Positions 27,316 through 41,511 of a stretch of 64,000 nucleotides of DNA are shown in pieces. The stretch covers positions 66,642-130,641 of the forward strand of contig JAERTI010000043.1 in NCBI GenBank assembly GCA_016844925.1, given 5' to 3'. This DNA is from Candidatus Uhrbacteria bacterium. Lineage in GTDB: Bacteria; Patescibacteriota; Patescibacteriia; UBA9934; GWF2-40-263. A model generated the notes under the pieces. It saw nothing but the letters and a program-made list of their open reading frames with translations, was not told the DNA's origin and searched no databases. Position 1 is the stretch's first letter. Each line of letters begins with the position of its first letter. The translations under genes were made by a program, and so were the position numbers.

Positions 27316-27330
27316 AAACCCCGATGAACA
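27304..27330. terminator. bidirectional hairpin terminator at GC boundary
   Basis: ccccgatg..catcgggg palindrome with A/T runs on both sides. Confidence 0.5.
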
Positions 27331-27376
27331 TCGGGGGAGAGCGACTCGCTGCGTGCGGGTCGCTTTTCTGTTTGAG

Positions 27377-28774
27377 CTACTCGAGCTCGCCGAACCACTC
27401 GTTGTGGAGCTGGTCGAAGCGACCGTCGCCCATCATGGTCAGCAGAGCCACGTTGGCACTCTCGCGCAGGGGGCTGTCCGGCGGGAAGAGCATGCCGTAG
27501 CGCTCGGTGGTGAAGGGCTCGCCCGTCACCACGACCTCGCCGGAGCCTTCGCCCCTGGCGTGGTGGATGAGGACCGGCTCGTCGAAGACGACTGCTTCGA
27601 CGCCGCCACCCTTGAGCAGGTCGAAGCCCTGGTCGATTCGGGAGACGGCGGTGACCTTGGCACCGGCCTTGCGAGCGGCGACCTCACTGGTTGTGCCAGC
27701 CTCGACGGCGACGTGAACGCCAGCGAGGTCCGCAGCGGTGTTCATGTGGGCCGTGTTCGCCTCGTCGATCCTGATCTCGGCGATGACGCCCACGACCAGA
27801 CCGACGAAGATGAAGCCGACGTACATCATCAGCGAGGTGAGGATGCGGGCCGGCCACGAGCGGGCCGTGTAGTGACCGTAGCCCACCGTGGTGGAGGTTA
27901 CGTTCATGAAGTAGACCGACTGGGGGAAGCCCTTCCAGAACTCGTAGGCGATCTCGCCAGGCTCGCGTTCCTTCTTGGGGTAGAAGAACCGCTCGCAGAC
28001 CCAGACCAGGAACCCGGCGAAGCACAGGAACGTGGCGTAGGAGAGGAAGACCTTGATCAGGTCCCAGTTGGTGAGGATGTTCCAGAACCCCTTGAGCATC
28101 GAGGTCTCTTCGCTGATGACCATGATGGCCAGGCCGCTGTCGTAGTACGGCAGGGAGAAGTCGACGCGCTCTTCGCGCTCACCGGTGATGGTGATGCCGG
28201 CGATGCCGACGTCTGCCTCGCCCTCAGCGACGGTGTCGATGAGGGTGGGGACGCTCTCGACGGCGATGGGCTCGTAGTCGCAGCCCATCTCCTCGGCGAT
28301 CATGTCCCAGAGCTCGATGTCGAAGCCGGTGAGCTCACCGCGCTCGTACATCACCATGGGCTCGAGCTCGTGCACCACCAGGGTGACGGGCTCGTCCACG
28401 GGGCAGGGGTCCTGCTTGTGCTCGATGACCTCGAACTCGACTTCCTCGAGCTCCACATCCGGCTCGGTGGCCGGTGGGTCCTCGGTGGCAGGGAGCTCGC
28501 CCGTCTCTCCGATGAGGGGCTCTTCTGTCGGCTCGGTCTCGTCTTCCGAGGGAAGGAGCTCTTCCTCGCCTTCTTCGTCGATCAGCTCGGGCACCACGGG
28601 TGCCGGCTCGGGATCGTCGTCCTGGGCCCACGCATCGGTCAGCGCGGGGGACAAGAGCAGGCCAAGGAGCACGAGCCCCACGGCGATGGTCTTCTGGCGG
28701 GGGCTGAGATGTCGCACGTGTACCTCCGTTTCAAGTGCAGTCAGAACAAACGCGGACGAGCGACCGTACGTCAT
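27377..28774 (-). CDS. GluR0-like ligand-gated potassium channel (SBP lobe, M1-P-M2 pore, SBP lobe)
   Basis: K+ selectivity filter TVGYG flanked by two TM helices, inserted between two halves of a periplasmic substrate-binding domain; signal peptide. Confidence 0.7.
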   Translation of the reverse strand: MTYGRSSAFVLTALETEVHVRHLSPRQKTIAVGLVLLGLLLSPALTDAWAQDDDPEPAPVVPELIDEEGEEELLPSEDETEPTEEPLIGETGELPATEDPPATEPDVELEEVEFEVIEHKQDPCPVDEPVTLVVHELEPMVMYERGELTGFDIELWDMIAEEMGCDYEPIAVESVPTLIDTVAEGEADVGIAGITITGEREERVDFSLPYYDSGLAIMVISEETSMLKGFWNILTNWDLIKVFLSYATFLCFAGFLVWVCERFFYPKKEREPGEIAYEFWKGFPQSVYFMNVTSTTVGYGHYTARSWPARILTSLMMYVGFIFVGLVVGVIAEIRIDEANTAHMNTAADLAGVHVAVEAGTTSEVAARKAGAKVTAVSRIDQGFDLLKGGGVEAVVFDEPVLIHHARGEGSGEVVVTGEPFTTERYGMLFPPDSPLRESANVALLTMMGDGRFDQLHNEWFGELE

Positions 28775-28853
28775 TTGGGTGGGTTTGTCAATAGAAATAG
28801 CCTGTATTTTGCAAAAAGAAAAGCGAGACCAGATTGGTCTCGCGCCGCGCCTC

Positions 28854-29564
28854 TCAGGAAGCTGCGGCCGTCTCGTCCTCCGGGAACAGCAGGACCGTGC
28901 CGTGGTACTGCTTTCCGACGGAGATGGAGCATCCTCCGTCCCAGAGCTCGACGCTCATGACACGGGTGCCCTTGGTGCCGTCCGTGGTGAAGGACTGGTA
29001 CTCCGCCACCTGCGTGATGTACTCGGAGGGCTTGCGTCGGTCCGCGCGCTCGGAACGGACGTGCACGGTGTAGTCGTACTCGTCCTCCACGGCGCGCCAG
29101 ACCAGGCCCTGGAACTCGAACTCCTCGGGCGGGGCGCCGTCGTCACCATGGAACCCCACGCCTTCGAAGGCGTCGAGCTGACGGACCTTCTCGGTCACGT
29201 CCTCCATGAGCCAGAACTCCCAGCGGTCCTCGTCGTCCTGCTCGCAGGTCAGGTGCATGATCGCCCCTTCCATGGGCTCACGCAGGGTGAGGCACCACCA
29301 GTACTCGTCCGGGTCGGGGTTCATGTCGTCGTCGACCAGGCTGTGCTTGTCGCGGGCGTCCACGACGTAGCTGTCGGAGCCGACGTAGATGGAGCTACCC
29401 AGGGGCACCTCGTTGTCTTCGACGACCTCTTCGGCCGTGTGCTTGCGGGGGCGCTTGCTCAGCTCCAGGTCGCGCAGCTTGCGCTTGTGGCGCCAGTACA
29501 GCACGCCTCCGAGGGTCAGGAGCGCCAGCGCTCCCAGGCTGATGCCTACCGAGATTTCGATCAT
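28854..29564 (-). CDS. membrane-anchored protein, DUF4178-like by context
   Basis: N-terminal TM followed by soluble acidic domain; neighbours are SpeE-like and DUF350. Confidence 0.35.
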   Translation of the reverse strand: MIEISVGISLGALALLTLGGVLYWRHKRKLRDLELSKRPRKHTAEEVVEDNEVPLGSSIYVGSDSYVVDARDKHSLVDDDMNPDPDEYWWCLTLREPMEGAIMHLTCEQDDEDRWEFWLMEDVTEKVRQLDAFEGVGFHGDDGAPPEEFEFQGLVWRAVEDEYDYTVHVRSERADRRKPSEYITQVAEYQSFTTDGTKGTRVMSVELWDGGCSISVGKQYHGTVLLFPEDETAAAS

Positions 29565-29583
29565 CTCTCTCTCCTTGGGGGGT

Positions 29584-31122
29584 CTAGGGAATGGTCTTCC
29601 AGGCCTGCTTGTAGGCCTCGTGAACCGTGGGGTGAATCAATCGACTCACCGCCAGATCATCCGGGCTCTCCGGAAAGATACCCTTCTCGAACCGGGTGGC
29701 TGCCTGCATGGCATCGCGATTGAGGATGTGGAGCTCCGTGCGCTCCTCGAACTGATCCAGGCGAGCCTGCAGCTCCTCGGGGCTCAGGTGATCCTCGCGT
29801 ACAGCGAGGTTGAACCCCCAGTCACCGAAGCTCGGGACGTTGATGCGGTACGGCAGGACGCTGAGTCCCGACGCATCGATGGTCGCCCAGATCGACGTGA
29901 ACGCCTCTCTGGCATGGATCGGAGACGTGGACTGGATCGCAGCGACCCCCTCAGGGAAGAGGTGGTTGCGCATGTTCCAGTAGAACTCCGTGGAGTACAG
30001 CTTGGCCAGCTCCACCCGACGCGGGTCGGGCAGGTCCACGATGATGACGTCCCACAGCTCGTCGTTTCCTTGGAGCCAGGTGTAGGCATCGTCGTGGATG
30101 ATGTGCACGCGCGGATCGTCCAGTGAACCCTCGTTGAGCTCGCTGATGACCGGGTGCGTGCGGCACAGCTCGGTCATGGCCGGATCCAAGTCCACCAAGG
30201 TGACCTGGGTGACCTGATCGTACTTGAGGATCTCGCGAATGGCCAGACCGTCACCACCGCCGAGTACCAGCACCTTGCGGGCGTCCGGGTTCACCCAGAA
30301 GGCCGGGTGGACCAGGAGCTCGTGGTAGCGGCGCTCGTCATGGCTGGCGAACTGCGTCCCGCCGTTGAGGTAGAGCCGGTAGCGGCCCTGGCTCTCTGTC
30401 AGCAGGATCTTCTGGTACGGCGTCTGCTGTGCGTAGACGATGGGGTCCTTGAAGAGCTTGGACTCGGCCTCGAAGGCCACGTCCTCGCCATGGATGCCCA
30501 ACAGGCCCACGGCCATGGTCGCGCACAATCCCATCGCCATCAGGGGCTTCGGGATGCGGCTGCGCAGGAAGTAGGCTCCCATGAATACGGCGATGGCCAG
30601 GTTGATGGCACCGCTGATCACGGGGGTGGTCACCGTCCCGAAGGTTGGGAGCAGGAAGGTGGCGTAGAGGAGTCCCGCCGCGAAGCTGCCGATGTAGTCG
30701 GCGGCGAACACGCGAGCAAGGTTCTCCTTGAGCACCACCTGACGTCGCTCGTTGAAGCGCGCCAGAAGCGGAATCTCCAACCCGATCAACAGACCGAGCA
30801 GAAGGGAGATGAAGATCGTGGCCGTCCAGGCCTGTCCCAGGCGGGCGGCCTGAGTGATGAAGATCGTGCTTCCCGCCGCGGCGACGGAGAGCATCAACTC
30901 GACGAACAGGAACAGCTTGAGCTCGCGTCCCTCAGTCAGGGACTTGCTCAGTCCAGCGCCTAGGCCCATGCCCAGCATGCACACGGAGATCGACACCGTG
31001 TAGGCGGCAATGGAGTTCCCCAGCAGGTACGACACCGTCGTTCCCACCGAGTATTCCGCCACCATTCCACAGAAGCCGGACGCGAAGATCGCGGCCATGA
31101 GGATCAGTTGGTCGGTTTTCAC
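29584..31122 (-). CDS. spermidine synthase-like aminopropyltransferase fused to an N-terminal multi-TM domain
   Basis: about 6 TM helices, then VLVLGGGDGLAIREILKY and DVIIVDLPDP SpeE signatures. Confidence 0.75.
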   Translation of the reverse strand: MKTDQLILMAAIFASGFCGMVAEYSVGTTVSYLLGNSIAAYTVSISVCMLGMGLGAGLSKSLTEGRELKLFLFVELMLSVAAAGSTIFITQAARLGQAWTATIFISLLLGLLIGLEIPLLARFNERRQVVLKENLARVFAADYIGSFAAGLLYATFLLPTFGTVTTPVISGAINLAIAVFMGAYFLRSRIPKPLMAMGLCATMAVGLLGIHGEDVAFEAESKLFKDPIVYAQQTPYQKILLTESQGRYRLYLNGGTQFASHDERRYHELLVHPAFWVNPDARKVLVLGGGDGLAIREILKYDQVTQVTLVDLDPAMTELCRTHPVISELNEGSLDDPRVHIIHDDAYTWLQGNDELWDVIIVDLPDPRRVELAKLYSTEFYWNMRNHLFPEGVAAIQSTSPIHAREAFTSIWATIDASGLSVLPYRINVPSFGDWGFNLAVREDHLSPEELQARLDQFEERTELHILNRDAMQAATRFEKGIFPESPDDLAVSRLIHPTVHEAYKQAWKTIP

Positions 31123-31243
31123 TCAGGTTTCTCCCGGTTGAAGATGGTGAATTGTAGATTGCTTCTCTTGAGGGGCGCACCGTTTGCGCATCTCAAGAAA
31201 AAGCTCCAGAGCGTATCTGGAGCAGCGTCTGAGGTGAAAGACG

Positions 31244-32128
31244 CTAGACGAAGGTGGCCACGAGCAGGATCGCCGAGCCGATGGTCAGCGCGGCGTCCAT
31301 GAAGCCAGCGCCGGTGTTGTTCTGCTCGAAGATCTCATCGTGCATGTTGGTCTTCTGCGTCAGGTTGATGGCGCCCATGAAGACCGCCCGCAGGATCCCG
31401 AGCAGGATCACCAGGACCAGCGAGAGGCCGGCCACCCACACGACACCTTCCATCAGCGAGAGGTTCTCGGCCTTGATGGACTCCGCGACGCCGGCCAGCA
31501 TGTAGTTGGCGGCGAAGGCGAAGCCCAGCAGGCTGACGCCCGCGGCCGGGTTGTCGTCGGCGAAGAACTCCTTGAAGAAGCTCGCGCCGCGCAGGTGGGT
31601 GAAGCGGTAGAGCAGCACCACGGTCAGCGCGCAGAGCATCACGGTCACGGCGATGGCCGCGTCCTCCAGCGGGGCCGGACCGAGGGTGTTCTCCTCGGTC
31701 ATCCCGTTGACCACACCCATCATGAGCGCGAGGCTCACGCAGGCGGCGGCCCAGTTGTGCTGGGTGAAGATCTCGTGGTTGAGGTCGTCACCGCCGTTGA
31801 AGGCGGCCACGGCCTTGGACAGGATGGTTCGCGCGACCACCACCAGGGCGATCGACATGACCACCGCCAGGGCAGCGGCGCCGACGTCGTGGGCGAAGGA
31901 AGCGAGCGACGGTCCGCTGATGGCGCTGTAGCTGACGTACAGCAGCGCCATGAGGAACCCGCCGGTCTCCAGACCCGCCACGGGGTTGTCCTTCTCGAAG
32001 AGCGCGTCACGCAGGGAGATCCCCGGCGTGAGCACCCGGTTCATGACCGGGAACCCGACGAGCAGGACCAGGCCGACAGCGACAGCCAGGTACGGCAGGT
32101 CGAACTTCAGGGCTTCGATGATGTTCAT
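31244..32128 (-). CDS. DUF350-like polytopic membrane protein (four repeats)
   Basis: repeated hydrophobic GL..G..L modules, no soluble domain; context with SpeE-like. Confidence 0.45.
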   Translation of the reverse strand: MNIIEALKFDLPYLAVAVGLVLLVGFPVMNRVLTPGISLRDALFEKDNPVAGLETGGFLMALLYVSYSAISGPSLASFAHDVGAAALAVVMSIALVVVARTILSKAVAAFNGGDDLNHEIFTQHNWAAACVSLALMMGVVNGMTEENTLGPAPLEDAAIAVTVMLCALTVVLLYRFTHLRGASFFKEFFADDNPAAGVSLLGFAFAANYMLAGVAESIKAENLSLMEGVVWVAGLSLVLVILLGILRAVFMGAINLTQKTNMHDEIFEQNNTGAGFMDAALTIGSAILLVATFV

Positions 32129-32161
32129 GAGTGTGTCCTCAGATGTCTGTTGGAGGGTTGT

Positions 32162-33112
32162 CTACTTGCCACCGCCGCCGGAGCCGCGGGAGCGAGAGCT
32201 CGAGCCTCCGGAGCGGACGGACTTGCTGGGCTTGGAGCTGGAGCTCGATCGCGAGGACGTGGACTTCTTGGTGGAAGACCCGCTCGTGGACGAGGTGCTC
32301 TTGGTGCTCGAGGCCTTGGACCGGGTCGACTTCACGTAGGTGCTGCCGGTGGTCGACGCCTTGGTCGAGCTCGTCTTGTACGTGCTCGGCCGCGTGGTCT
32401 TGGTGGCCGTCTGCGAGCTCAGCGTGCTCTTGGACCCGACGTAGGTGTTGCGGGTGCTGTTGATCACCGTGACCGAGCGCACCGGGCGGCTGTAGTAGCT
32501 GCCGCCGTAGTACCCAGCGTTGTAGTAGCCCCAGCCGTAGCCGTAGTAGGGGCTGCGTCCGGGGGACAGCAGGTAGCCCCACAGGAAGCCACTCGTGAAG
32601 CCGCTGCTTCCGTGGTAGTGGTCGTGGTAGTAGTGGTTGTCGTACCCGCTGACGTAGTCGGGGTACCCACCGTAGATCTCCACGTCCTCGCTCTCGGTCG
32701 TGTGCTGGACCGTCAGCTCTGCCACGGCGGTGTAGCCGTCTTCCTTCTCCGGGGCGCTGGAGGGGTAGGCGATGAAGGCCAGGTTGATCTTCCCGTCCTT
32801 CTGCTCTTCCTCCACGGCCACGAAGTCCACGGAACCATCACCGTCGATGTCGACGTTGTTGATCCCGGTCTCGGGGTCGTTGATCTTGGCCTCGAGCTCC
32901 GGCATGTCCGAGATTTCCTCGGACTTGATGAGCTTGATGATCGTCTCCAGGTCGAAGGCGCTGGCGTCCAGGAGGAACACCTGGCCCTGGGCCTCGGTAC
33001 TGGTCGTCGTCGTGCTGCTCTTCTGCGGCGAGCTGTTGCTGCTGCTCGACGGCCCACAGGCCGTCATCATGGCCAGCGCCATCAGCGCTGCCAGCAGGTG
33101 ACTGATTCGCAT
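32162..33112 (-). CDS. lipoprotein with Gly/Tyr-rich and Ser/Thr/Lys-rich low-complexity regions
   Basis: lipobox LAMMTAC; GYYGGSYY and STKSTSS tracts. Confidence 0.5.
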   Translation of the reverse strand: MRISHLLAALMALAMMTACGPSSSSNSSPQKSSTTTTSTEAQGQVFLLDASAFDLETIIKLIKSEEISDMPELEAKINDPETGINNVDIDGDGSVDFVAVEEEQKDGKINLAFIAYPSSAPEKEDGYTAVAELTVQHTTESEDVEIYGGYPDYVSGYDNHYYHDHYHGSSGFTSGFLWGYLLSPGRSPYYGYGWGYYNAGYYGGSYYSRPVRSVTVINSTRNTYVGSKSTLSSQTATKTTRPSTYKTSSTKASTTGSTYVKSTRSKASSTKSTSSTSGSSTKKSTSSRSSSSSKPSKSVRSGGSSSRSRGSGGGGK

Positions 33113-33116
33113 CTTC

Positions 33117-33671
33117 TCACTCCCTCTCGGTCAAAGACGTGTGGGAGAGGACAACCCTCACCCCCACATCAGGTGTGTAGTACTCGTGAACGGTTTTGAT
33201 CTGGACCTGTCCGGATGGATCCACGGACACGGCAACGAGCGTTCTGGGCTCGGCCGGACCGGGGAAGGTCTGATCGAGGGTCAGGTCTGCCCCCTCGAAC
33301 AGTTCATCTCGCAGAGTCTGTCGACGCGCGGCGTCGGCAAGCTCAAGTTGAAGGGTTGCCATGACACGGTGCGTTCCCAGTCGGTAGCTCAGCCGTGGCG
33401 TCGCGGCGATGTCACGTGACCAGTGCACGGGATGGAACCCGTACTGGTGCACGTCGACGCACGCGAGCAATTCCACGAAGCTCAGCGCTCCGGTGAGTCG
33501 CACGAAGTGGCTCTCGCCAATGATGGCTGCCTCCACAGACAAGCCATCGGGGAACCCACGCACTTCGCGCTTGAGCACTGTCAGCGCGCTCGGATCGAAC
33601 GTGCCAACGGATGCTTCCGTGCTGAAGTGGGCGAAGGTCAGGCCCTCTGGGGTCTGGAAGACTGGTTTCAT
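33117..33671 (-). CDS. hypothetical protein (185 aa)
   Basis: ORF track gives 326 aa but the N-terminal 142 residues look spurious; internal ATG at 33671 gives a plausible 185-aa product; TTGACA promoter upstream. Confidence 0.4.
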   Translation of the reverse strand: MKPVFQTPEGLTFAHFSTEASVGTFDPSALTVLKREVRGFPDGLSVEAAIIGESHFVRLTGALSFVELLACVDVHQYGFHPVHWSRDIAATPRLSYRLGTHRVMATLQLELADAARRQTLRDELFEGADLTLDQTFPGPAEPRTLVAVSVDPSGQVQIKTVHEYYTPDVGVRVVLSHTSLTERE

Positions 33672-33732
33672 CTGATGTTTCACCTCAGTTGTAAGGGACG
33701 CAAACAGCACAAAAATTTGGCCATTTGACGCG

Positions 33733-33800
33733 ACAGAGTAGAATTTTTTGCCAGTTTTGTCAATGGATAAAAAGAAAAACCCGCCTGTGTTGGCGGGGAG
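33733..33800 (-). promoter_or_regulatory. terminator+promoter module (minus strand)
   Basis: hairpin cccgcc/ggcggg with T-run, then TTGACA, 17-nt spacer, TACTCT. Confidence 0.45.
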
Positions 33801-33801
33801 C

Positions 33802-34281
33802 TCAGCAAGCGACGTATTCGCTGCTGAAAGGGAGCTTGGAGACGTGGAAGCCCTGCCCGAGATCGGGGTCGAACTCGTCGATCTCGAGGATCTCCAGTAC
33901 CTCGATGATGTGCAGAGCGCTCTTGCCCAGGGGGCTCTTGGCTCGCTCCTCTGGCTCGGCTGCGCGTGCCAATACGATGGCGTCGCACTGCCGCAACTGG
34001 ATGCTGTGCAGGGGCTGGTCCGTATCCCTGCGGATGGCCAGGACCCCAACGACGTCAGTGGAGGACGAGTTCGTTCCCAGTGGGTGACTGATGCCAACTA
34101 GGCAGAGACAGTCGTCGCCCCAATCCTCTGCGGCGCACAGGATGCGTCGGGACTTCTCGAGTTTCTTCTCTGGGGTGAGGGCCAGTGCCTGTTCGATGGC
34201 GTGGCGCTGCTGTGCGATGAGGGCCATGGGTATCTCCTTGGTAGATGAGTCTTCTGCATCCGGTTGCGACGGTCCTGTCAC
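33802..34281 (-). CDS. small cytoplasmic protein, paralog A (possible roadblock/LC7-like fold)
   Basis: C-terminal half aligns with 36286..36714 (CDAxVLxR ... KLP..E.FVAC). Confidence 0.45.
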   Translation of the reverse strand: MTGPSQPDAEDSSTKEIPMALIAQQRHAIEQALALTPEKKLEKSRRILCAAEDWGDDCLCLVGISHPLGTNSSSTDVVGVLAIRRDTDQPLHSIQLRQCDAIVLARAAEPEERAKSPLGKSALHIIEVLEILEIDEFDPDLGQGFHVSKLPFSSEYVAC

Positions 34282-34309
34282 AATCGGGTGAAAAAGGTCC
34301 TGGCGTAGG

Positions 34310-35086: not shown

Positions 35087-35105
35087 AGAACTCGACCGCG
35101 TGGGG

Positions 35106-36008
35106 TTAGTAGCTCGGGATCGAGGTGTGCGGCTTGACGCGCCGACATTCCGCGATCACGTGAGCCGGGAGGTCTTCCTCGCACTGGCAGTCAGTGCAGT
35201 AGGTGCGACCTTCCTTCAAGCGAGGGAAGGTGTTTCCCGGACGTTGGTTGTCACGTTGCCACTGGCGCTGCGCTTCAGGTCCGCTGGAGAGTGTGCCGCC
35301 GCATGAGCATTGCGTGGTCGCCCAAGCCTTGGCGCTGTTTCCACCAGACGCTGGGCGCGTATGGATCTTCCATCGGCGATTCTTGTGTGCCGCTGCGAGT
35401 ACCTCCTGAGGATCGAATGTTGCCGAGCTGGTCCACGGGAAGTCTTCCTTGCGAACTCGCGGCTGATGCGAGGTGCACCAGGCGTTGGTAGACGTGAATC
35501 CACGCTGCAGCTCGTCAATGGTGACGAGTACGGACTTTTCTGGAAACAAGATGGTCATGCATTGCTGCTCCCATGGATCCACGGTGCCGATCACAGACGA
35601 GATGTTGTGCTGCCGGCAAATCTGTACCAAGTGCACGTGGTCGATGCGCCTCAAGTTCGCCTGAGGGATCCGCTTGCTGGGCAAGCTAGAAAAGCGAACA
35701 GCAGGATGGCGATCTGCACGAGGCTTGGCTCGCAGCTCAACGAGAATCGCTAACGGGGCGTTCAGTCCCAGGATGAGCCGGGTGTCGAACCGTTCGTTCT
35801 GGGTGACTACCGCAACCTTCGGTCGGTTGGCCTCAGGGAGGTGATCGATGAGCTCTTCAATGCTCACGGCAGCTTCCAGGTCGGGAGCAAGAACGCGCGA
35901 TGCTCCTAGGGCTTGTGTGAGCCGAGCGATTTCAGCACGAGCCTTCAGGGCCTTGATGAGGGACATGTCCTCTCCTTGTGGGTGAACAACAAAAGACGTC
36001 TTCTCCAC
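35106..36008 (-). CDS. hypothetical protein
   Basis: long ORF with upstream TTGACA/TATTCT promoter; no family recognised. Confidence 0.35.
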   Translation of the reverse strand: MEKTSFVVHPQGEDMSLIKALKARAEIARLTQALGASRVLAPDLEAAVSIEELIDHLPEANRPKVAVVTQNERFDTRLILGLNAPLAILVELRAKPRADRHPAVRFSSLPSKRIPQANLRRIDHVHLVQICRQHNISSVIGTVDPWEQQCMTILFPEKSVLVTIDELQRGFTSTNAWCTSHQPRVRKEDFPWTSSATFDPQEVLAAAHKNRRWKIHTRPASGGNSAKAWATTQCSCGGTLSSGPEAQRQWQRDNQRPGNTFPRLKEGRTYCTDCQCEEDLPAHVIAECRRVKPHTSIPSY

Positions 36009-36214
36009 AGAAAAGACGCCTGGTATCGGAGGAAGTAGAAAACGACGGGGCCAGCGTGAAAATAAAATCAGACGCCGGGGCGTCGTATTCAGTCTTCCTT
36101 TGCATCTTTCCCTTGCGGGATGGAGTTCGCACCTTATCGATTACTCGACAGGTTGCGGGCAGGTCATAGGGCCAATTCCCTCACTGCTCTCTGAATACGT
36201 TTCTTCAGTTGTTG

Positions 36215-36285: not shown

Positions 36286-36714
36286 CTAGCAGGCCACGAA
36301 GGTCTCGGTGGCCGGCAGCTTGGCCAGCTTCAGGGGGCTTGTCTGATCCTCGGGCTCGGCGAAGGTGAGCGCCTGGACGATCTTCATCGCGCTGCGGCTC
36401 AGCACGCTGGCCTCGCGCTCGTCCGCCGTGGGCGACCGCACCAGCACCATCGCGTCGCAGGCGGACAGCTTGATGGTGTCGTCCTGCTTCAGGTCCTTCT
36501 TGCCCAGGACGAACACGCCGACGGCGCGGTCCGAGCTCGCGTTCGGGCCCTGGCCCTTGCTCACGCCGGCGAACTTGATCTGCTTGCCATCCACGCTCCA
36601 CTGCTGGGGCAGCTCTCCCTCCCTCAGCACGGCTCCCACGTTGATCTGCCCGTCGACACCCAGCCGCCTGAGCAGCGTGTCGATCGCGGGTCGTTCGTTG
36701 GCCATGACACCCAT
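36286..36714 (-). CDS. small cytoplasmic protein, paralog B
   Basis: paralog of 33802..34281. Confidence 0.45.
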   Translation of the reverse strand: MGVMANERPAIDTLLRRLGVDGQINVGAVLREGELPQQWSVDGKQIKFAGVSKGQGPNASSDRAVGVFVLGKKDLKQDDTIKLSACDAMVLVRSPTADEREASVLSRSAMKIVQALTFAEPEDQTSPLKLAKLPATETFVAC

Positions 36715-36830
36715 GGACGTTCTCCTTTGCTCTGCGTTGAGCTGGCGGAGTGTAGGGGGTTTTGAGGCTTTTTGTCAAGGGGTGGGAAAAGAAAAAAGAG
36801 CCGACGAATCGACTCGGTGCTGAGCGTGTC

Positions 36831-38003
36831 TCAGCGGGCGTAGGGCTTGCAGGAGCTCGCCTTGTGGTCCTGCACGTACAGGCGGATGACGCCTGGCTTG
36901 AGCGAGAACTTGGGGAGCGTGCGGCTCCCGCGGGGTCGGGCCTCATCCTCACAGTCGCCGCCCTCGGTGCAGGTGATGAACTCGCGTCCATCCTTGCGCT
37001 GGTACCAGGGCGGAGCGTCCGGGGTCCGGTTCTTGTAGTTGTGCCACGCGGTGGACGCGTAGGGCAGGGCCACTTTCGTGATCAGGCTCAGGACGCCGAT
37101 GACGATCATCAGGCCCACAGCCAGCTCCAGGGTCCAGAGCACGGCGATCCACCAGACGAACTGGTGACCCGATCCGGTCATGAGCATCGAGCAGATCCCC
37201 AAGCAGATCAGGAGGCTCATGGGCGAGGCCAGCATCGGTAGCCAGCCCAGTGAGCTGTACCACTTGTGCTTGGGAACGTTCAGGTCCAGGTAGTAGCCCT
37301 TCTGCTGCGCCCAGATGTCGTTGGTGCTGTCACGCAGCGGGTGGAGCAGGGGCTGGTAGTTCAGGTTGCGCACCGTCAGCAGGGTCAGAATCAGCGCGAC
37401 GAACACGCGGAACGTGTAGAAGAGCGCGAAGATTGGGATCTGCACGGTGAAGGCTCCACCGCAGCGGCGGTAGAACTGACAGGTGTCCACTGGTCGTTCT
37501 TCCCACAGCCAGTTCACCCAGTCGGCGAGCATGGGGTGGGGCTCCTTGGCGAAGCAGCCCTGCGGGACGTCCACGCTGGTGCTGGAGCCGTAGATCGTTG
37601 GGCCCGCCAGCATCCAGTTGTCCGTGATGTAGTCGTCGCCCGTGAGGATCTCCGAGCCGCTTGCCTTCAGGACCGTGTTGACCCAGTCACCGTTCTTCTT
37701 GGACAGCAGGTAGTCCTCGAGTGACTTGTCGTCGTCCGGGTCCTCCCACACCACCGCGGCGTGGATCTTGTTCGGACCGTCCCGCCTGAACCCGACGAAG
37801 GCCAGGCCATCGCGCAGCGGCACCAGGCGCCGCTCTTCGTGCTTGGAGTGGTAGCTTTCGTCGCCAGGGGCGGTGACGATGAGCAGCATCGGTTCTTCAA
37901 TGCGCTTCTCGGCGAGTGCGTCTACGGCACTCGGACCGATGCACCAGCTGATCTGGATGGCCCCCCGAGAGATGTCGGGGTCGGTAACGGACAGTGCGAG
38001 CAT
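36831..38003 (-). CDS. hypothetical polytopic membrane protein with N-terminal soluble domain and C-terminal Cys-rich tail
   Basis: about 5 TM helices; CTEGGDCEDE tail. Confidence 0.4.
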   Translation of the reverse strand: MLALSVTDPDISRGAIQISWCIGPSAVDALAEKRIEEPMLLIVTAPGDESYHSKHEERRLVPLRDGLAFVGFRRDGPNKIHAAVVWEDPDDDKSLEDYLLSKKNGDWVNTVLKASGSEILTGDDYITDNWMLAGPTIYGSSTSVDVPQGCFAKEPHPMLADWVNWLWEERPVDTCQFYRRCGGAFTVQIPIFALFYTFRVFVALILTLLTVRNLNYQPLLHPLRDSTNDIWAQQKGYYLDLNVPKHKWYSSLGWLPMLASPMSLLICLGICSMLMTGSGHQFVWWIAVLWTLELAVGLMIVIGVLSLITKVALPYASTAWHNYKNRTPDAPPWYQRKDGREFITCTEGGDCEDEARPRGSRTLPKFSLKPGVIRLYVQDHKASSCKPYAR

Positions 38004-38131
38004 GTGACCTCCTTGTCGCTCTCTGTTAAGCGAACAGGGGATTCTTGCATCAGCAAGAGTGATACGTCAAGTGAAGCAAGCGCGTGTAAACAAAAAAGCG
38101 ATCAAGATGATCGCGGCGACGTGCGTTGTCG

Positions 38132-38638
38132 CTAGAGCACCAGACCCATGGCGAGGCCGGGGTTGATGCTGCCGCTCTGGTAGCGCAGGTCCCAGAAGGC
38201 AACGCAGTACCCAGAGAGGAAGAAGTCGTCGGTGGCGTACCAGGTGAACCCGGGGCCCGATCCGACGCCCACACCCATCTGACTGAACTCTCCTCGGACT
38301 TGCTCCTGGGAGACCTCGAACAGCAGGTCCATGCCCAGCGTGTCGGTGACCATCCACTCGAAGGTGGTGGTCAAGCCCACACCCCAGTAGCCGGTGTCCG
38401 GGGACAGCTTCGCGTAGGGGTTGAAGGCGAGCCAGAACTTGGGCGACGGCTCGAAGTACCACATCGGTCCGGCCCAGAGGTAGCTGGCGCCGTAGCCGTC
38501 CGTGGTCAGCATGGGGGACGCCCCCACGACCAGAGCCTTGCTCACCTCCAGGGAGGTCTCGCTCTGAGTCGGTTCGTCCGCGTGGGCGGGGGTGCTCATC
38601 AGGCCCAAGGCCATCAGAGCGAGAAACAGGTAGCGCAT
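38132..38638 (-). CDS. secreted beta-rich protein, possible small outer-membrane barrel
   Basis: signal peptide MRYLFLALMALGLMSTPAHA; alternating aromatic/Gly pattern. Confidence 0.4.
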   Translation of the reverse strand: MRYLFLALMALGLMSTPAHADEPTQSETSLEVSKALVVGASPMLTTDGYGASYLWAGPMWYFEPSPKFWLAFNPYAKLSPDTGYWGVGLTTTFEWMVTDTLGMDLLFEVSQEQVRGEFSQMGVGVGSGPGFTWYATDDFFLSGYCVAFWDLRYQSGSINPGLAMGLVL

Positions 38639-38742
38639 GGCAGTCTCCTCTACTGGTGTTGCGGCGGCACGATAGCCACTTCATCACGTTTGGTCAAGGG
38701 GTAATAGAAAACCGCCCACGATGGACGGGTACGTTTGAGACC

Positions 38743-39237
38743 CTAGGATCGGGTCCCAATGATGGCCATGGGTTGGAGCTTGAACAGCTCGCCGATGGTC
38801 AGGGTGCCACGTCGCCAAGCGGCCATGGCCTGCTCGTGCAGCTTGCCACCCTGGGGGTGGGCGAGCCAGGTTGCGTGGCTCGTGCCTTCGCGCTCCAGGT
38901 CAGCGTCGATGCGCTCCAGGGCGGGGCGGAGTCTGGGGAGAATCGAGTGAGTGATCTCGTGCTGCTTCCTCCGCGCTTGCTCGCGAAGTCCTTCTTCTTC
39001 GGTCAGGGCATCGATGATCTGGACGTGCCAACCTTCCGCGTAGGTCACGTGAGAGACGGCCAGTCGCGCGCTGACGATGGTGCGCGGCGTGACGAGGTTG
39101 GGGGCGTGGGGCTGCAGGGCCTGTGCCAGCGCCTGTGTGTACTGCCCGAACACGCGAGTGTGCTCTTCGTTCGTTTGGGTTTCCGATCCCGCGCACGTCA
39201 TGAACGCCACTCGAATCCCTTCTGCTGTAATTGCCAC
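38743..39237 (-). CDS. hypothetical protein
   Basis: ORF in high-GC island, no family recognised. Confidence 0.35.
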   Translation of the reverse strand: MAITAEGIRVAFMTCAGSETQTNEEHTRVFGQYTQALAQALQPHAPNLVTPRTIVSARLAVSHVTYAEGWHVQIIDALTEEEGLREQARRKQHEITHSILPRLRPALERIDADLEREGTSHATWLAHPQGGKLHEQAMAAWRRGTLTIGELFKLQPMAIIGTRS

Positions 39238-39304
39238 CGTCCGTTCTCCTTGAGCTAAGAGGGAAGCGTTTGGACCCTAGCAGCCGGCCGTGGGAGCGTC
39301 AATC

Positions 39305-39340
39305 AAAAAACCACTGAACGGGTCAGTGGTTTTGTTGTTA
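39305..39340. terminator. bidirectional terminator at GC boundary
   Basis: ccactga acggg tcagtgg hairpin with T-runs on both strands. Confidence 0.5.
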
Positions 39341-40372
39341 CGTTTTGTTATCCTCGACGATGAGCTGGCCACAGGCGGCCTCGATGTCATCTCCCATGGT
39401 ATGTCGAATGGTTGTGACAACCCCCTTCTCTTTGAGGATGTCTTGAAACATGTGCGTAGCTGAATCTGTTGAGCAAGTGAATTCGACTCCTGTGAGGTTG
39501 TAGGGAATGAGGTTTACACGGACGTTTCCAATGCGCTTTACAAAGTTTGCCAGCGTACGTGCGTGTTTTTCTGTGTCGTTTACATCCTTGAGCATGACAT
39601 ACTCAAAGGTGAGGTGGTGTCGACGGTTTCCAAACTTTTTGAGATAGGCCTTTGCCCAAGCTTCTAGCTTAGGGAGGAATTCGTCAAAAGACGTTGGAAC
39701 GATTTGTTTGCGTGTTGTTGGTATGGCGCTATGGAGGGAGACCGCAAGGCGGATGTGCGGCCACTCGTCGTCTGTGAGAATTTGCTCCAGGCGCGGAAGG
39801 ACGCCGACGGTTGACACAGTAATGCGTGTGCGGCCGATGTCTGTGTGTTTCAAAATGGTGTTGAGCGTCTTTTTTACTTCCGGGTAGTTTGCCAATGGCT
39901 CACCCATCCCCATGAAGACGATGTTGCTGATGCGACCCTCAAGACCCTCGTCCTCAATATAGTGCTGCCAAAATCTGAGCTGATCGATGATTTCGTCGGC
40001 GATGAGACTGCGGCTGAGCCCCATCTTTCCCGTGGCACAGAACCCACAGCGCATAGCGCAACCAATTTGCGAGGAAACGCAGATGGTCCAGGCCTCACGT
40101 TTGTTTTTCATGAGCACGGTCTCGATCTGTTTGTCGCCAGCGACCGTAAGGATGGCCTTATGAGTATCACCGTTGCCGCTCTTGAACGTCTGCTTTGCCT
40201 CGACAGACATCCAGGGGATCTCGGTGATCTGTTCACGCATGGATTTTGAGAGGGTGGTGAGGTCACTCCAATCCCGCGCAGACGAAAAGAATCCCTGTTC
40301 GATTTGTTTCCAGCGGAAGGCTGGCTCGTTCGGGAAGAGGTGGTCAAATTGTTCTTTGCGAGATTGAATCAT
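39338..40372 (-). CDS. rlmN: 23S rRNA m2A2503 / tRNA m2A37 methyltransferase (radical SAM)
   Basis: CAMRCGFCATGK radical-SAM Cys cluster, RlmN/Cfr-like length and motifs. Confidence 0.85.
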   Translation of the reverse strand: MIQSRKEQFDHLFPNEPAFRWKQIEQGFFSSARDWSDLTTLSKSMREQITEIPWMSVEAKQTFKSGNGDTHKAILTVAGDKQIETVLMKNKREAWTICVSSQIGCAMRCGFCATGKMGLSRSLIADEIIDQLRFWQHYIEDEGLEGRISNIVFMGMGEPLANYPEVKKTLNTILKHTDIGRTRITVSTVGVLPRLEQILTDDEWPHIRLAVSLHSAIPTTRKQIVPTSFDEFLPKLEAWAKAYLKKFGNRRHHLTFEYVMLKDVNDTEKHARTLANFVKRIGNVRVNLIPYNLTGVEFTCSTDSATHMFQDILKEKGVVTTIRHTMGDDIEAACGQLIVEDNKT

Positions 40373-40416
40373 AGAAACGAAGAGACGAGAGCGTTGGCTC
40401 TCGTCTCAGGCAGTCA

Positions 40417-40953
40417 TTACTCAGCAGCCTCTTCGGCTGGCTTCTCTTCTTCCGCAGGTGCTTCCTCTGCAGGAGCCTCCTCGGCCGGAGCTTCAGCCTC
40501 TGCGGCTGGTTCCTCTGCAGGAGCCTCTTCAGCTGGAGCTTCAGCTTCTGCCTTAGCAGCCTCGGCCTCAGCCTTAGCAGCCTCTGCAGCAGCAGCCTTC
40601 TCTTCTTCAGCCTTTGCCTTTGCAGCCTCTTCCTTCTCCTTAGCAGCAGCAGCCTTTTCTTCGATCTTTGCTGCGCGCTTCTTGGAGATGTGTGTAGAGC
40701 CACGCTTTTCACCTTCGACGATCTTTTGGTCGACGAGGAGGTTCCAGACGCTGTTAGAAGGCTGGGCACCCTGGCTGATCCAGTACTTTACGCGGTCAGC
40801 CTTGATGACGATTTCCTTAGGATTTGAGCGAGGGTTGTAGTGGCCAAGGATCTCGTTTGAGTCGGCCCATGGGTCGCGGTGCTTAGGCATTACAACAATG
40901 CGGTAAACCGGACGCTTTTTTGACCCCACGCGGGAGAGTCGAATAGAAAGCAT
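40417..40953 (-). CDS. rpsP: 30S ribosomal protein S16 with about 95-aa Ala/Glu/Lys-rich C-terminal extension
   Basis: MLSIRLSRVGSKKRPVYRIVV S16 N-terminus; repetitive AEEAPAEE tail encoded by tandem DNA repeats. Confidence 0.85.
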   Translation of the reverse strand: MLSIRLSRVGSKKRPVYRIVVMPKHRDPWADSNEILGHYNPRSNPKEIVIKADRVKYWISQGAQPSNSVWNLLVDQKIVEGEKRGSTHISKKRAAKIEEKAAAAKEKEEAAKAKAEEEKAAAAEAAKAEAEAAKAEAEAPAEEAPAEEPAAEAEAPAEEAPAEEAPAEEEKPAEEAAE

Positions 40954-41001
40954 AATGAAATTGATGTTTTTGTCTTAAGTGAGCGCTTAGACAGTGCGGC
41001 G

Positions 41002-41030
41002 AGTATAAGGGTAAGGGGCGGTCAAGTCAA
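41002..41030 (-). promoter_or_regulatory. candidate rpsP promoter
   Basis: minus strand TTGACT, 17-nt spacer, TATACT, about 50 nt upstream of rpsP ATG. Confidence 0.5.
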
Positions 41031-41087
41031 TGGTTGTGGGGGGTGTGGGTCTTGCTATGGTTGGGCGAGCTGATCACTGGGACGAAT

Positions 41088-41142
41088 TTTGAGATCTGTA
41101 GGGACACTGTCCGACTCAAAATTGTCCCAGCGCTCGTTCGTC
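41088..41142. repeat. long inverted repeat (about 16-bp stem)
   Basis: ctgggacgaattttgag ... ctcaaaattgtcccag. Confidence 0.6.
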
Positions 41143-41254
41143 TTGGTTGACCGCGGTGGAGGTGGGGTGGTGGGAGTAGATAACTGCGCTTGTCAGGGAC
41201 AGTGAACATTTACAAGAAAAAGGCCTAATTTAAGCTTAATATCTGTCACTAAGT

Positions 41255-41284
41255 ATTGACAAAAGTGTCAAAAGATGGTATTGT
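41255..41284 (+). promoter_or_regulatory. near-consensus sigma70 promoter with embedded palindrome, pointing into the high-GC array
   Basis: TTGACA, 17-nt spacer, TATTGT; palindrome TGACAaaagTGTCA overlapping the -35 and spacer. Confidence 0.45.
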
Positions 41285-41511
41285 ACACACGTAATGATGA
41301 GAACTCAACAGAAGCTCATCGATCACTACAACTGCATATTTCTCTGGGGAGAGAGTATAAAAAGGACTAAATCCTAAGGGTTTAGGGCCGGTTGTTATGT
41401 ATTTCTTTCCAGAAGTACCTAGCAATCGGCCTTTTTTGTTCGCCGGGCATGGACTGAGGATCACGTCCCCAGTCTTGTCCCAACGAGCTCAACGCCTAGG
41501 AGGCCCTGCTC

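What the first reader, a model, noticed from the sequence alone, without database searches (positions are those of the whole stretch)
27330..41400. Sharp GC-content mosaic: chimeric assembly or two horizontally acquired islands
Moderate-GC housekeeping DNA (1-27330 and 39300-41400) is interrupted by two clearly high-GC blocks (27330-39300 and 41400-64000). Transitions occur within a few tens of nt, each at a bidirectional terminator hairpin (27304-27330, 39305-39340).

Sedentary integron arrays normally match host composition. A high-GC cassette array in a moderate-GC backbone therefore suggests recent horizontal acquisition, a mis-assembly/chimera, or an engineered construct.
Basis: seen in the sequence. 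Interest (0 to 1): 0.75.

Follow-up and report, generated by a model that had tools for sequence, protein, structure and literature searches.

The report
GC-rich flexible regions in Uhrbacteria genome
The sharp GC jumps are real and not an assembly error: they mark where the conserved core genes of an uncultivated Uhrbacteria (CPR) bacterium meet two fast-turnover regions, a replaceable gene island and an integron-like cassette array, that stay GC-rich across related genomes.

Summary
The mosaic is confirmed. Maximum-likelihood change points fall at 27331, 39298 and 41440. GC is 0.485 and 0.510 in the core blocks and 0.623 and 0.582 in the rich blocks; GC3 is about 0.45-0.5 against 0.65-0.95.

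It is not a chimera. A Logan contig built with another assembler is 100% identical across 23493-41101. Contigs of a close relative from five other metagenomes carry the same junctions.

The host is a Candidatus Uhrbacteria bacterium.
- Block 1 is a variable locus between rlmN and trmD. It has no integrase, adjacent tRNA or flanking repeats. Only 27370-33765 (a spermidine-synthase-like module) and 34263-35388 are specific to this lineage; 35389-39300 is shared with the relative.
- Block 2 is a cassette array with attC-like sites and no integrase. It sits next to rpsP in all relatives examined, and about half its content differs from the closest one.

Against that relative, GC-rich genes show 3-10 times lower synonymous divergence than the flanking core genes (dS 0.04-0.33 against 0.66-1.08) and higher dN/dS. 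Their GC3 has not decayed.

Best reading: these are flexible compartments fed by a GC-rich gene pool exchanged among related lineages, not two recent en-bloc insertions. Why the pool is GC-rich remains unresolved.

The parts
22031..23527 (-). 16S rRNA gene in the moderate-GC backbone, not linked to a 23S gene
   Evidence: Rfam SSU_rRNA_bacteria, 1458.6 bits. The Logan contig ends inside it at 23493.
24271..27315 (+). Core genes forming the left flank: pyrD (24271-25386), trmD (25389-26045) and a BNR/Ycf48-like protein (about 26005-27315). GC3 is 0.45-0.53.
   Evidence: NCBIfam and Pfam hits. GC3. 86% DNA identity to relative L111. dS is 0.76 for trmD and 0.66 for BNR.
27319..27367 (.). Left compositional boundary: two tandem terminator hairpins. 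The one at 27319-27336 serves the minus-strand channel gene; the one at 27337-27367 serves the plus-strand BNR gene.
   Evidence: z=-5.3. Change point at 27331. Homology with L111 ends at about 27368-27370.
27370..33765 (-). Lineage-specific GC-rich segment, GC3 0.72-0.95. Genes: GluR0-type ligand-gated K+ channel (27377-28774), 236-aa protein (28854-29564), membrane-fused spermidine-synthase-like protein (29584-31122), DUF350 protein (31244-32128), 316-aa lipoprotein-like protein (32162-33112), DUF2617 protein (33117-33671).
   Evidence: Pfam and NCBIfam hits. Absent from L111, where a Y1 transposase and a 263-aa gene occupy the site. The same module lies at another locus in L084.
33780..36000 (-). 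Sub-block of intermediate GC, GC3 0.65-0.80. It holds the terminator at 33780-33797 and genes of 141 aa (33802-34227), 242 aa (34310-35038) and 286 aa (35106-35966). Positions 34263-35388 are absent from the relative.
   Evidence: The 141-aa gene is 71% identical in DNA to its L111 counterpart, with dS 1.5.
36099..36201 (-). SAM-I riboswitch inside the GC-rich block, upstream of the 286-aa gene
   Evidence: Rfam RF00162, 55.5 bits against a gathering score of 44.4. 84% conserved in L089 and 95-99% in L111.
36286..39201 (-). GC-rich genes shared and syntenic with the closest relative: 142 aa (36286-36714), 390-aa membrane protein (36831-38003), 168-aa secreted protein (38132-38638) and 152 aa (38743-39201). 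GC3 is 0.80-0.94. Each has its own terminator.
   Evidence: About 90% DNA identity to L111. dS is 0.04-0.29 and dN/dS 0.13-1.7, and GC3 is the same in both lineages.
39307..39333 (.). Right boundary of block 1: bidirectional terminator hairpin downstream of rlmN
   Evidence: Change point at 39298. DNA identity to L111 drops from about 0.9 to 0.71-0.85 at this point.
39338..40953 (-). Core genes rlmN (39338-40372) and rpsP (40417-40953; long Ala/Glu/Lys-rich tail). GC is 0.51-0.56.
   Evidence: NCBIfam hits. The exact RlmN protein is recorded on a 261,502-bp NCBI contig, and the named top hits are Candidatus Uhrbacteria. dS is 1.08 for rlmN and 0.22 for rpsP.
41205..41440 (+). AT-rich conserved non-coding region with a sigma-70-like promoter (TTGACA-17-TATTGT, 41256-41284) pointing into the array. 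It may act as a Pc-like promoter.
   Evidence: 73-75% conserved in L089 and L090 and 90-97% in L111.
42514..42765 (+). Conserved structured RNA of about 235-250 nt at the head of the array, with no Rfam family
   Evidence: 82-86% DNA identity in L089, L090 and L108. 87 predicted pairs, 17 with compensatory changes. Covariance model R1 finds one copy per array-bearing locus. No Rfam match, apart from one chance-level 15-nt hit (eiav_FSE, 10.3 bits against a gathering score of 40, E=7.1) outside the element at 42480-42494.
41440..64000 (+). GC-rich cassette array of CALIN type that runs off the window. About 35 short co-oriented ORFs (GC3 0.58-0.97). At least 17 attC-like palindromes with AAC...GTT cores (45133-62650; 40-71 nt) and 7 palindromes of a second class (44.2-62.0 kb).
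   Evidence: None of the 20 largest ORFs reaches a Pfam family; the only hit is a sub-threshold Zincin_1 match (19.8 bits against a cut-off of 22.4). No integrase. Colinear with the L114 array at 78-96% identity (mostly 90-96%), with 10.6 kb specific to the window.

Best explanation
The window comes from a Candidatus Uhrbacteria (CPR/Patescibacteria) chromosome. Conserved moderate-GC core genes alternate with two flexible compartments.

(i) A replacement-type variable locus lies between rlmN and BNR-trmD.

(ii) An integron-like array of attC-type cassettes, with no integrase nearby, is fixed next to rpsP.

Both compartments draw on a GC-rich pool of accessory genes specific to this clade. Pieces of that pool are gained, lost and exchanged between related lineages after their core genomes have diverged. 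Exchange is probably by homologous recombination on conserved flanks for the island, and by cassette or array recombination for the array (inferred).

The sharp GC steps are the borders between core and flexible DNA. They fall at intrinsic terminators because whole transcription units are the units of exchange.

Shown: the mosaic is real and contiguous; the layout is conserved in relatives; there are presence/absence differences; synonymous divergence is lower, dN/dS higher and GC3 undecayed in the GC-rich parts.

Inferred: gene flow between lineages causes the low divergence, and the pool originates in GC-richer genomes and/or is kept GC-rich by a recombination-linked bias.
For: Contiguity.
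- A Logan contig is 100% identical to window 23493-41101.
- Relatives from five other metagenomes share all three junctions.

Host.
- The named RlmN homologues are Uhrbacteria or Patescibacteria.
- The backbone carries type IV pilus genes, thrA-asd-thrC and a 16S gene.

Flexible locus.
- The rlmN-to-trmD interval holds different genes in each relative.
- 27370-33765 and 34263-35388 are absent from L111, which has an IS200/IS605 transposase there. The breakpoints sit at terminators.

Array.
- The same locus, the same 42-nt attC-like type and a colinear cassette order occur in L090, L108 and L111-L115.
- 47% of the array is specific to the window.

The GC contrast is clade-wide. GC3 of core against flexible genes is 0.39-0.48 against 0.64-0.90 in L089, 0.42-0.51 against 0.71-0.90 in L084 and 0.50-0.70 against 0.65-0.94 in L111. 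In L110 core genes are 0.24-0.36 and the SpeE module 0.48-0.58.

Separate history.
- dS is 0.66-1.08 for trmD, BNR and rlmN. It is 0.04-0.29 for the shared island genes and mostly 0.06-0.33 for cassettes.
- dN/dS is 0.04-0.09 in the core and 0.09-2.6 in flexible genes.
- Intergenic identity in the island is also high.
- DNA identity and GC change at the same point, 39.3 kb.
- dS varies widely among cassettes (0.06-0.81), which fits piecewise exchange.

Pool is specific to the clade. The one cassette protein searched has 232 homologues, and the only named one is from Candidatus Uhrbacteria. Its homologue in L116 is GC3-rich (0.87 against 0.54-0.69 in most neighbouring genes; two reach 0.76 and 0.82) even outside an array.
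Against: - Only four core genes could be compared with the close relative, and one of them (rpsP) has a low dS of 0.22. The genome-wide core dS is therefore not established.
- A GC-favouring force at synonymous sites would itself lower dS. My rough calculation suggests a reduction of about 2-fold or less, so part of the contrast may not reflect recency.
- No GC-rich donor genome with near-identical DNA was found.
- The nearest SpeE-module homologue (L084) is only 68% identical in DNA.
- The colinear order of shared cassettes fits vertical inheritance of the array better than repeated independent capture.
- No recombinase was found that could move cassettes.
- Read-level support could not be examined. 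The Logan contig probably derives from the same reads as the source assembly.
Confidence: 0.6

Rival explanations
1. Classical recent horizontal transfer: each high-GC block is a single island recently inserted from a distant high-GC donor phylum and not yet ameliorated.
For: - GC3 is 0.86-0.95 in 27377-33112, against 0.36-0.53 in the backbone.
- The dinucleotide signature differs from the backbone.
- The SpeE module is absent from two relatives' loci.
- It is present with host-matched GC in non-CPR genomes of 63-68% GC: L085 at 57% and L109 at 53% amino-acid identity. That is closer than the Uhrbacteria GW2011 copy at 49%.
Against: - There is no integrase, adjacent tRNA or direct repeat longer than 8 bp.
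- 35389-39300 and the array are syntenic in relatives, with the same GC contrast.
- The attC-like type is shared within the clade.
- The cassette protein family searched is Uhrbacteria-associated.
- The nearest SpeE relatives (59-71% identity) have moderate-GC amino-acid composition. One of them (L084) sits in a genome with the same mosaic.
- GC1 and GC2 of the island genes (about 0.64 and 0.42) are lower than in the 68% GC homologues.
Confidence: 0.15
2. In-situ enrichment: the flexible regions are native DNA. Their synonymous and non-coding sites are driven GC-rich by GC-biased gene conversion, because these loci recombine often, or by selection for GC. No GC-rich donors are needed.
For: - The enrichment is mostly at third positions: +0.3 to +0.45 in GC3, against about +0.05 in GC1 and GC2.
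- Island intergenic GC is also raised, 0.52 against 0.43.
- GC3 is identical in both lineages, with symmetric AT/GC differences and so no decay.
- The contrast persists over deep divergences.
- The same regions show signs of recombination.
- Lassalle et al. 2015 (PMC4450053) report higher GC3 in recombining bacterial genes, and note that recently acquired genes are usually AT-rich.
- rpsP has GC3 of 0.52, so GC-ending codons are not the translationally preferred set.
Against: - The magnitude appears larger than I would expect from bacterial gBGC. This is my own judgement; I did not extract the effect sizes reported in PMC4450053.
- A bias strong enough to give GC3 of 0.9 lowers dS only about 2-fold by my estimate, not 3-10-fold.
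- Cassettes with modest GC3 (0.67-0.70) have the lowest dS, 0.06-0.08.
- No polymorphism data were available to test fixation bias.
Confidence: 0.2
3. Assembly or binning chimera, or an engineered construct: DNA of two organisms was joined at the GC steps.
For: The composition changes abruptly within tens of nucleotides. The source is a metagenome-derived contig, and no reads were available to me.
Against: - A contig from a different assembler is 100% identical across two junctions.
- Five other metagenomes give relatives with the same three junctions and colinear flanks on both sides.
- The terminators at the junctions are conserved.
- There is no plasmid or vector similarity.
Confidence: 0.02

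Closest known systems
Sedentary chromosomal integrons and CALIN elements (clusters of attC sites lacking an integron-integrase), e.g. Vibrio and Xanthomonas arrays
   Same: - Long array of short, co-oriented, mostly unannotatable ORFs.
- The ORFs are separated by imperfect palindromes with AAC...GTT cores.
- The site type is shared within the taxon, as described for SCIs in PMC8352920.
- The chromosomal locus is fixed.
- Cassettes are gained and lost between close relatives.
   Different: - No integrase in 64 kb, nor in about 100 kb of relatives' loci. One relative's array (L108) ends at smc.
- 12 of the 17 sites are only 40-42 nt and one is 46 nt. They are near-perfect hairpins with no evident extrahelical bases.
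- A second palindrome class lacks AAC/GTT.
- A conserved structured RNA sits at the head of the array.
- The host is a CPR bacterium.
- The array is about 10 GC points richer than the core.
Replacement-type flexible genomic islands / hypervariable regions of marine bacteria (named from my own knowledge)
   Same: - The same locus between conserved core genes carries different gene sets in relatives.
- There is no integrase, tRNA or target duplication.
- Breakpoints lie in intergenic DNA.
- The encoded proteins are mostly secreted or membrane proteins of unknown function.
   Different: - The region is GC-richer than the core, whereas atypical regions are usually AT-richer.
- Synonymous divergence from the nearest relative is lower than in the flanking core genes.
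- It contains a SAM riboswitch and a polyamine-synthase-like membrane module.
Integrase-mediated genomic islands (pathogenicity-island type)
   Same: Sharp compositional borders, atypical codon usage and presence/absence polymorphism of the 6.4-kb SpeE module.
   Different: No integrase or other mobility gene in the window. It is not next to a tRNA, has no flanking direct repeats, and half of the block is syntenic in relatives.
Recombination-associated GC3 heterogeneity attributed to GC-biased gene conversion in bacteria (Lassalle et al. 2015, PMC4450053)
   Same: The enrichment is concentrated at third codon positions, extends to intergenic DNA, occurs in regions with evidence of recombination, and is independent of preferred codons.
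   Different: The effect (GC3 0.45-0.5 against 0.65-0.95) is very large and confined to sharply bounded blocks. No direct evidence of conversion bias was obtained.

Membership tests
Complete integron | Integron integrase (intI, tyrosine recombinase) next to the array | tested here: not met
   No Phage_integrase hit on ORFs near or inside the array. The array runs off the window at 64000, so a distal or unlinked intI is not excluded.
Complete integron | attC sites: imperfect palindromes R''-L''...L'-R' with conserved AAC/GTT, normally about 57-141 nt with extrahelical bases | tested here: inconclusive
   17 sites of the form (C)CTCAAC...GTTGRGG were found; 4 are 68-71 nt with a long variable stem and 13 are only 40-46 nt. 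They are near-perfect hairpins with a 2x2 internal loop and no clear extrahelical bases. IntegronFinder's attC model was not available.
Complete integron | Cassettes: short, promoterless, co-oriented ORFs, each followed by a recombination site | tested here: met
   About 35 plus-strand ORFs of 67-275 aa are interleaved with the palindromes.
Complete integron | attI site and Pc promoter at the head of the array | tested here: inconclusive
   A conserved promoter-like TTGACA-17-TATTGT at 41256-41284 points into the array. No attI could be recognised.
Sedentary chromosomal integron / CALIN | Homogeneous attC type shared within a taxon, and a fixed chromosomal position | tested here: met
   The same 42-nt type occurs in the L090 array. 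Arrays sit next to rpsP in L089, L090 and L111-L115, and shared cassettes are colinear.
CALIN | At least two attC sites clustered, with no integrase within 4 kb | tested here: met
   subject to the caveat above on attC validation.
Integrase-mediated genomic island | Integrase or other mobility gene inside the island | tested here: not met
   The 13 island proteins have no recombinase domain. A Y1 transposase occurs only in the relative's version of the locus.
Integrase-mediated genomic island | Insertion next to a tRNA or tmRNA gene, with flanking direct repeats | tested here: not met
   The only tRNAs are at 16135-16292. The longest repeat shared by the two borders is 8 nt, which is the chance level.
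Integrase-mediated genomic island | Atypical composition and presence/absence among relatives | tested here: met
   for composition. for presence/absence, which holds for 27370-33765 and 34263-35388 only.
Replacement-type flexible genomic island | The same locus, bounded by conserved core genes, carries different gene content in related genomes and lacks its own mobility genes | tested here: met
   The rlmN...trmD interval holds four different gene sets: in the window, in L111, in JGI 3300072015/L089 and in L090.
Assembly chimera | Junctions not reproduced by independent assemblies or samples | tested here: not met
   The junctions are reproduced. Read-level support was not testable with these tools.

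The most novel reading that the evidence does not exclude
A clade of marine Uhrbacteria (CPR) keeps a two-compartment genome.
- One compartment is a moderate-GC core.
- The other is a GC3-rich (0.65-0.95) flexible compartment. It comprises an attC-type cassette array with no local integrase, headed by an undescribed structured RNA of about 235 nt, plus a replacement island.

In this reading the flexible compartment moves between lineages after their cores have diverged. Its GC-richness is actively maintained, by recombination-linked GC-biased conversion or by selection, rather than inherited from foreign donors.
Probability: 0.2. Interest if true: 0.7.

Novelty: new variant of a known kind. 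Interest (0 to 1): 0.5.

Why it matters
Compositional steps are routinely taken as signs of contamination, chimeras or recent foreign DNA, especially in metagenome-assembled genomes of uncultivated lineages. Here neither shortcut holds. The steps are authentic, recur across related genomes, and mark a stable border between core and flexible DNA.

Accessory DNA is usually AT-richer than its host. A flexible compartment that is GC-richer, has not decayed, and is less diverged at synonymous sites than the neighbouring core genes gives a concrete system for two questions:
- how gene flow and GC-biased processes shape small symbiont-type (CPR) genomes;
- how integron-like cassette arrays work without a nearby integrase.

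In practice, binning and decontamination tools based on composition would tend to discard exactly these regions.

Tried and rejected
- **attC-like sites inside block 1.** A strict scan found them only in 45.1-62.7 kb, apart from one isolated 115-nt pattern match at 3424-3538 in the backbone that I judged chance. The island is therefore not part of the array.
- **Direct repeats at the island borders.** Only an 8-mer was shared, about 1.1 expected by chance.
- **Integrase search.** Pfam on candidate ORFs and tblastn with IntI1/XerC probes found nothing.
- **Genome-collection scan with RlmN.** The best hit was a 64% identical MAG (L004) with no synteny. It named the phylum but was useless as an empty-site test.
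- **Metagenome scan with the attC-like pattern.** 16 of 17 loci were isolated palindromes in unrelated DNA, mostly GC-rich (GC 0.49-0.70). Only L108 was a related array.
- **Pfam and NCBIfam on island and cassette proteins.** Seven island proteins and all 20 cassette proteins tested reach no family, apart from a sub-threshold Zincin_1 hit on one cassette protein.
- **Plasmid similarity** for both blocks: none.
- **Rfam** for the conserved RNA: no meaningful match even at E<=10.
- **Codon-optimality explanation for high GC3.** Rejected because rpsP, the one highly expressed gene here, has GC3 of 0.52.
- **PARCEL elements** as a possible analogue. Rejected because the term refers to a coding repeat.
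- **Literature on integrons in CPR/Patescibacteria.** The searches found no description of such arrays.


Full report
**1. The observation**

The GC profile shows four blocks.
- Likelihood change points fall at 27331, 39298 and 41440.
- Block means are 0.485 (1-27330), 0.623 (27331-39300), 0.510 (39301-41400) and 0.582 (41401-64000).
- The first two steps are very strongly supported and the third is weaker.
- With 100-nt windows, the left step is complete within about 150 nt.

The contrast lies mainly at third codon positions.
- Backbone genes have GC3 of 0.36-0.53.
- The 13 minus-strand genes of block 1 have GC3 of 0.65-0.95.
- The plausible cassette ORFs have GC3 of 0.58-0.97.

The dinucleotide signature separates two classes. 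The distance is 28-56 within the backbone and 41-68 among the SpeE half of the island (27340-33300) and the array. Between those and the backbone it is 74-145. The other island half (33301-39300) is intermediate, at 67-87 from the backbone.

Both borders of block 1 carry hairpins.
- Two tandem hairpins at 27319-27367 each have a U-run on one strand.
- A hairpin at 39307-39333 lies between A and T runs.

The exception is that the right-hand block is heterogeneous rather than uniformly high.

**2. What the DNA encodes**

The backbone (1-27.3 kb) carries:
- signal peptidase, a two-component system and a type IV pilus cluster;
- tRNA-Ile and tRNA-Phe;
- thrA-asd-thrC;
- an unlinked 16S rRNA gene (22031-23527, minus strand);
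- a KH protein, pyrD, trmD and a BNR-repeat protein.

The short moderate-GC block holds rlmN and rpsP.

Block 1 holds 13 co-oriented genes in about nine transcription units, each ending in an intrinsic terminator. They include:
- a GluR0-type ligand-gated K+ channel;
- a membrane-fused spermidine-synthase-like protein, and DUF350 and DUF2617 proteins;
- several proteins with no family;
- a SAM-I riboswitch at 36099-36201.

Block 2 is an array of about 35 short plus-strand ORFs.
- They are separated by at least 17 attC-like palindromes of the form (C)CTCAAC...GTTGRGG, 40-71 nt long.
- Seven palindromes belong to a second class.
- None of the 20 ORFs tested reaches a Pfam family; the only hit is a sub-threshold Zincin_1 match.
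- No integrase is present.

**3. Host**

The exact RlmN protein is on record from a 261,502-bp NCBI contig. Its named homologues at 60-77% identity are Candidatus Uhrbacteria, Patescibacteria or Peregrinibacteria. The best species-representative genome hit is also labelled Candidatus Uhrbacteria.

**4. Not a chimera**

A 17,609-bp Logan contig from run SRR13374099, built with another assembler, is 100% identical to window 23493-41101. It ends inside the 16S gene and just before the repeat-rich array.

More tellingly, a close relative was assembled from five other metagenomes (L111-L115) and is 86-96% identical in DNA. It shows trmD-BNR next to GC-rich genes, those genes next to rlmN-rpsP, and rpsP next to a colinear array.

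More distant relatives (L089 and L090, with RlmN at 83% and 79% identity, and L108) share the rpsP-array junction and conserved non-coding elements. Neither block resembles any plasmid.

**5. Anatomy of block 1 against relatives**

Homology with L111 runs through the BNR gene and both terminator hairpins. It stops at about 27369 and resumes at about 33766, exactly at the terminator of the 141-aa gene.

The 6.4 kb in between runs from the DUF2617 gene to the channel gene. In L111 it is replaced by an IS200/IS605 Y1 transposase and a 263-aa gene. A second segment, 34263-35388, is also absent from L111.

By contrast, 35389-39300 is shared at about 90% identity. This stretch holds part of the 286-aa gene, the riboswitch and the 142-, 390-, 168- and 152-aa genes.

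A more distant relative has yet another gene set between rlmN and trmD. No integrase, adjacent tRNA or border repeat longer than 8 nt exists. Block 1 is therefore a variable locus built in layers, not one inserted element.

The SpeE module also occurs as a unit at a different locus in L084 (71% SpeE identity). It occurs in the reference Uhrbacteria genome GW2011_GWF2_41_16 (L110). It also occurs, with host-matched GC, in non-CPR genomes of 63-68% GC (L085 and L109).

**6. Anatomy of block 2 against relatives**

The array sits next to rpsP in every relative examined. L090 carries the same 42-nt site type. L108 is syntenic with window 41.6-47.4 kb, and its array ends at an smc gene without an integrase.

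Against L114, shared cassettes are colinear at 78-96% identity (mostly 90-96%). However, 10.6 of 22.7 kb is specific to the window. This is the behaviour of a sedentary array with rapid cassette turnover.

By the usual definition it is a CALIN, unless an integrase lies beyond the window. SCIs are described as having taxon-specific, homogeneous attC sites (PMC8352920), which fits. The very short, near-perfect hairpins and the second palindrome class do not fit the canonical description. I could not run the standard attC model.

**7. The GC contrast belongs to the clade, not to this genome**

GC3 of core against flexible genes:

| Locus | Core genes | Flexible genes |
|---|---|---|
| L089 | 0.39-0.48 | 0.64-0.90 |
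| L084 | 0.42-0.51 | 0.71-0.90 |
| L111 | 0.50-0.70 | 0.65-0.94 |
| L110 | 0.24-0.36 | 0.48-0.58 (SpeE module) |

In L108, overall GC is 0.46 for smc against 0.53-0.60 for the array.

The one cassette protein family searched has 232 homologues, and the only named one is from Uhrbacteria. A homologue in L116 has GC3 of 0.87 while most neighbouring genes are 0.54-0.69 (two reach 0.76 and 0.82), without any array.

**8. Divergence test**

Codon-aligned comparison with L111/L114 gives the following.

| Genes | dS | dN/dS |
|---|---|---|
| Core: trmD, BNR, rlmN | 0.76, 0.66, 1.08 | 0.04-0.09 (all four core genes) |
| Core: rpsP (as expected for a highly expressed gene) | 0.22 | |
| Shared GC-rich island genes | 0.04-0.29 | 0.13-2.6 (apart from one cassette at 0.09) |
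| Cassettes | mostly 0.06-0.33, outliers up to 0.81 | |

- GC3 is the same in both lineages, and AT/GC differences are symmetric.
- DNA identity changes from about 0.9 to 0.71-0.85 exactly at the 39.3-kb GC step.
- Island intergenic DNA is as conserved as its coding DNA.

My inference runs as follows. Suppose the GC-rich genes had been inherited vertically since the split and had evolved under the core's synonymous regime. Their GC3 excess should then have shrunk by roughly 40% in each lineage, which would require an impossible ancestral GC3 above 1.

So either they share a more recent ancestor than the core genes, meaning exchange between lineages, or a force holds GC3 up, or both. A bias strong enough for GC3 of 0.9 lowers the synonymous rate only about 2-fold by a standard fixation-bias calculation. 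Moderate-GC3 cassettes also have the lowest dS. Recent exchange is therefore needed for at least part of the effect.

Selection for preferred codons is unlikely, because rpsP has GC3 of 0.52.

**9. Conclusion**

The mosaic marks the borders between core DNA and two flexible compartments that share a GC-rich composition.

Horizontal acquisition is right in spirit but not in form. The array and half of the island are old residents of their loci whose content turns over. Only 27370-33765 and 34263-35388 are lineage-specific.

The cause of the GC-richness remains open. The candidates are GC-richer relatives or other donors, or recombination-linked bias as proposed for bacteria in PMC4450053, which also notes that acquired genes are usually AT-rich.

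**10. Limits**

- Only four core genes could be compared with the close relative.
- No reads were available.
- The taxonomy rests on the depositors' names.

Noticed in passing
window 42514-42765 (+): Conserved structured RNA of about 235-250 nt between rpsP and the first attC-type cassettes. It is 82-86% identical in distant relatives, where rlmN is only 74%. It has 87 predicted pairs, 17 with compensatory changes, and G-U pairs favour the plus strand. There is one copy per array-bearing locus and no Rfam family match at E<=10 (only a chance 15-nt hit outside the element). It ends about 10 nt before an ORF start, so it could be either a leader or a stand-alone RNA.
   Followed up: partly
window 36099-36201 (-): SAM-I riboswitch (55.5 bits) inside the GC-rich island. 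It lies upstream of a Cys-rich 286-aa protein with no family, in the same gene string as a spermidine-synthase-like module. It is conserved in L089 and L111.
   Followed up: partly
window 44229-44237, 44614-44622, 51743-51785, 59213-59250, 59994-60031, 61086-61122, 61956-61993: A second family of inter-cassette palindromes (CTGACCCGCGCTCGA..TCGAGAGCGGATCGGTGG) lacks the AAC/GTT core of attC sites and is interleaved with the attC-like class. It may be a second recombination-site type or a terminator family.
   Followed up: no
window 41512-41745 (+) and 36286-36714 (-): A small secreted ORF (77 aa, GC3 0.97) and the 142-aa island gene have dN/dS above 1 against the closest relative (2.6 and 1.7). 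Only 3-16% of their four-fold sites differ. This suggests diversifying selection.
   Followed up: partly
window 16497-21843 (+): A thrA-asd-(kinase-like ORF)-thrC threonine pathway cluster, with pyrD nearby, in a genome assigned to the CPR. That group usually lacks amino-acid biosynthesis.
   Followed up: no
window 22031-23527 (-): A 16S rRNA gene stands alone, with no 23S or 5S gene within the window. The tRNA-Ile(GAT) gene lies 6 kb away next to tRNA-Phe rather than in an rRNA operon.
   Followed up: no
window 40417-40700 (-): rpsP encodes a 178-aa S16 with a roughly 90-residue Ala/Glu/Lys/Pro-rich C-terminal tail built from 15-33-nt tandem repeats. The tail is present in relatives too (156-182 aa).
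   Followed up: no
L111 15444-15872 (also L112, L113): In the closest relative, an IS200/IS605-type Y1 transposase sits exactly where the window carries the 6.4-kb SpeE module. It is the only mobility gene seen at this locus, and its GC3 (0.47) is like that of the core.
   Followed up: no
window 43164-43625 / 43751-44128; 51920-52651 / 53375-54202; 33802-34227 / 36286-36714: Three pairs of paralogous genes lie within the flexible regions, including 117-nt upstream repeats that are 91% identical at 43159 and 43644. This indicates local duplication of cassettes and island genes.
   Followed up: no
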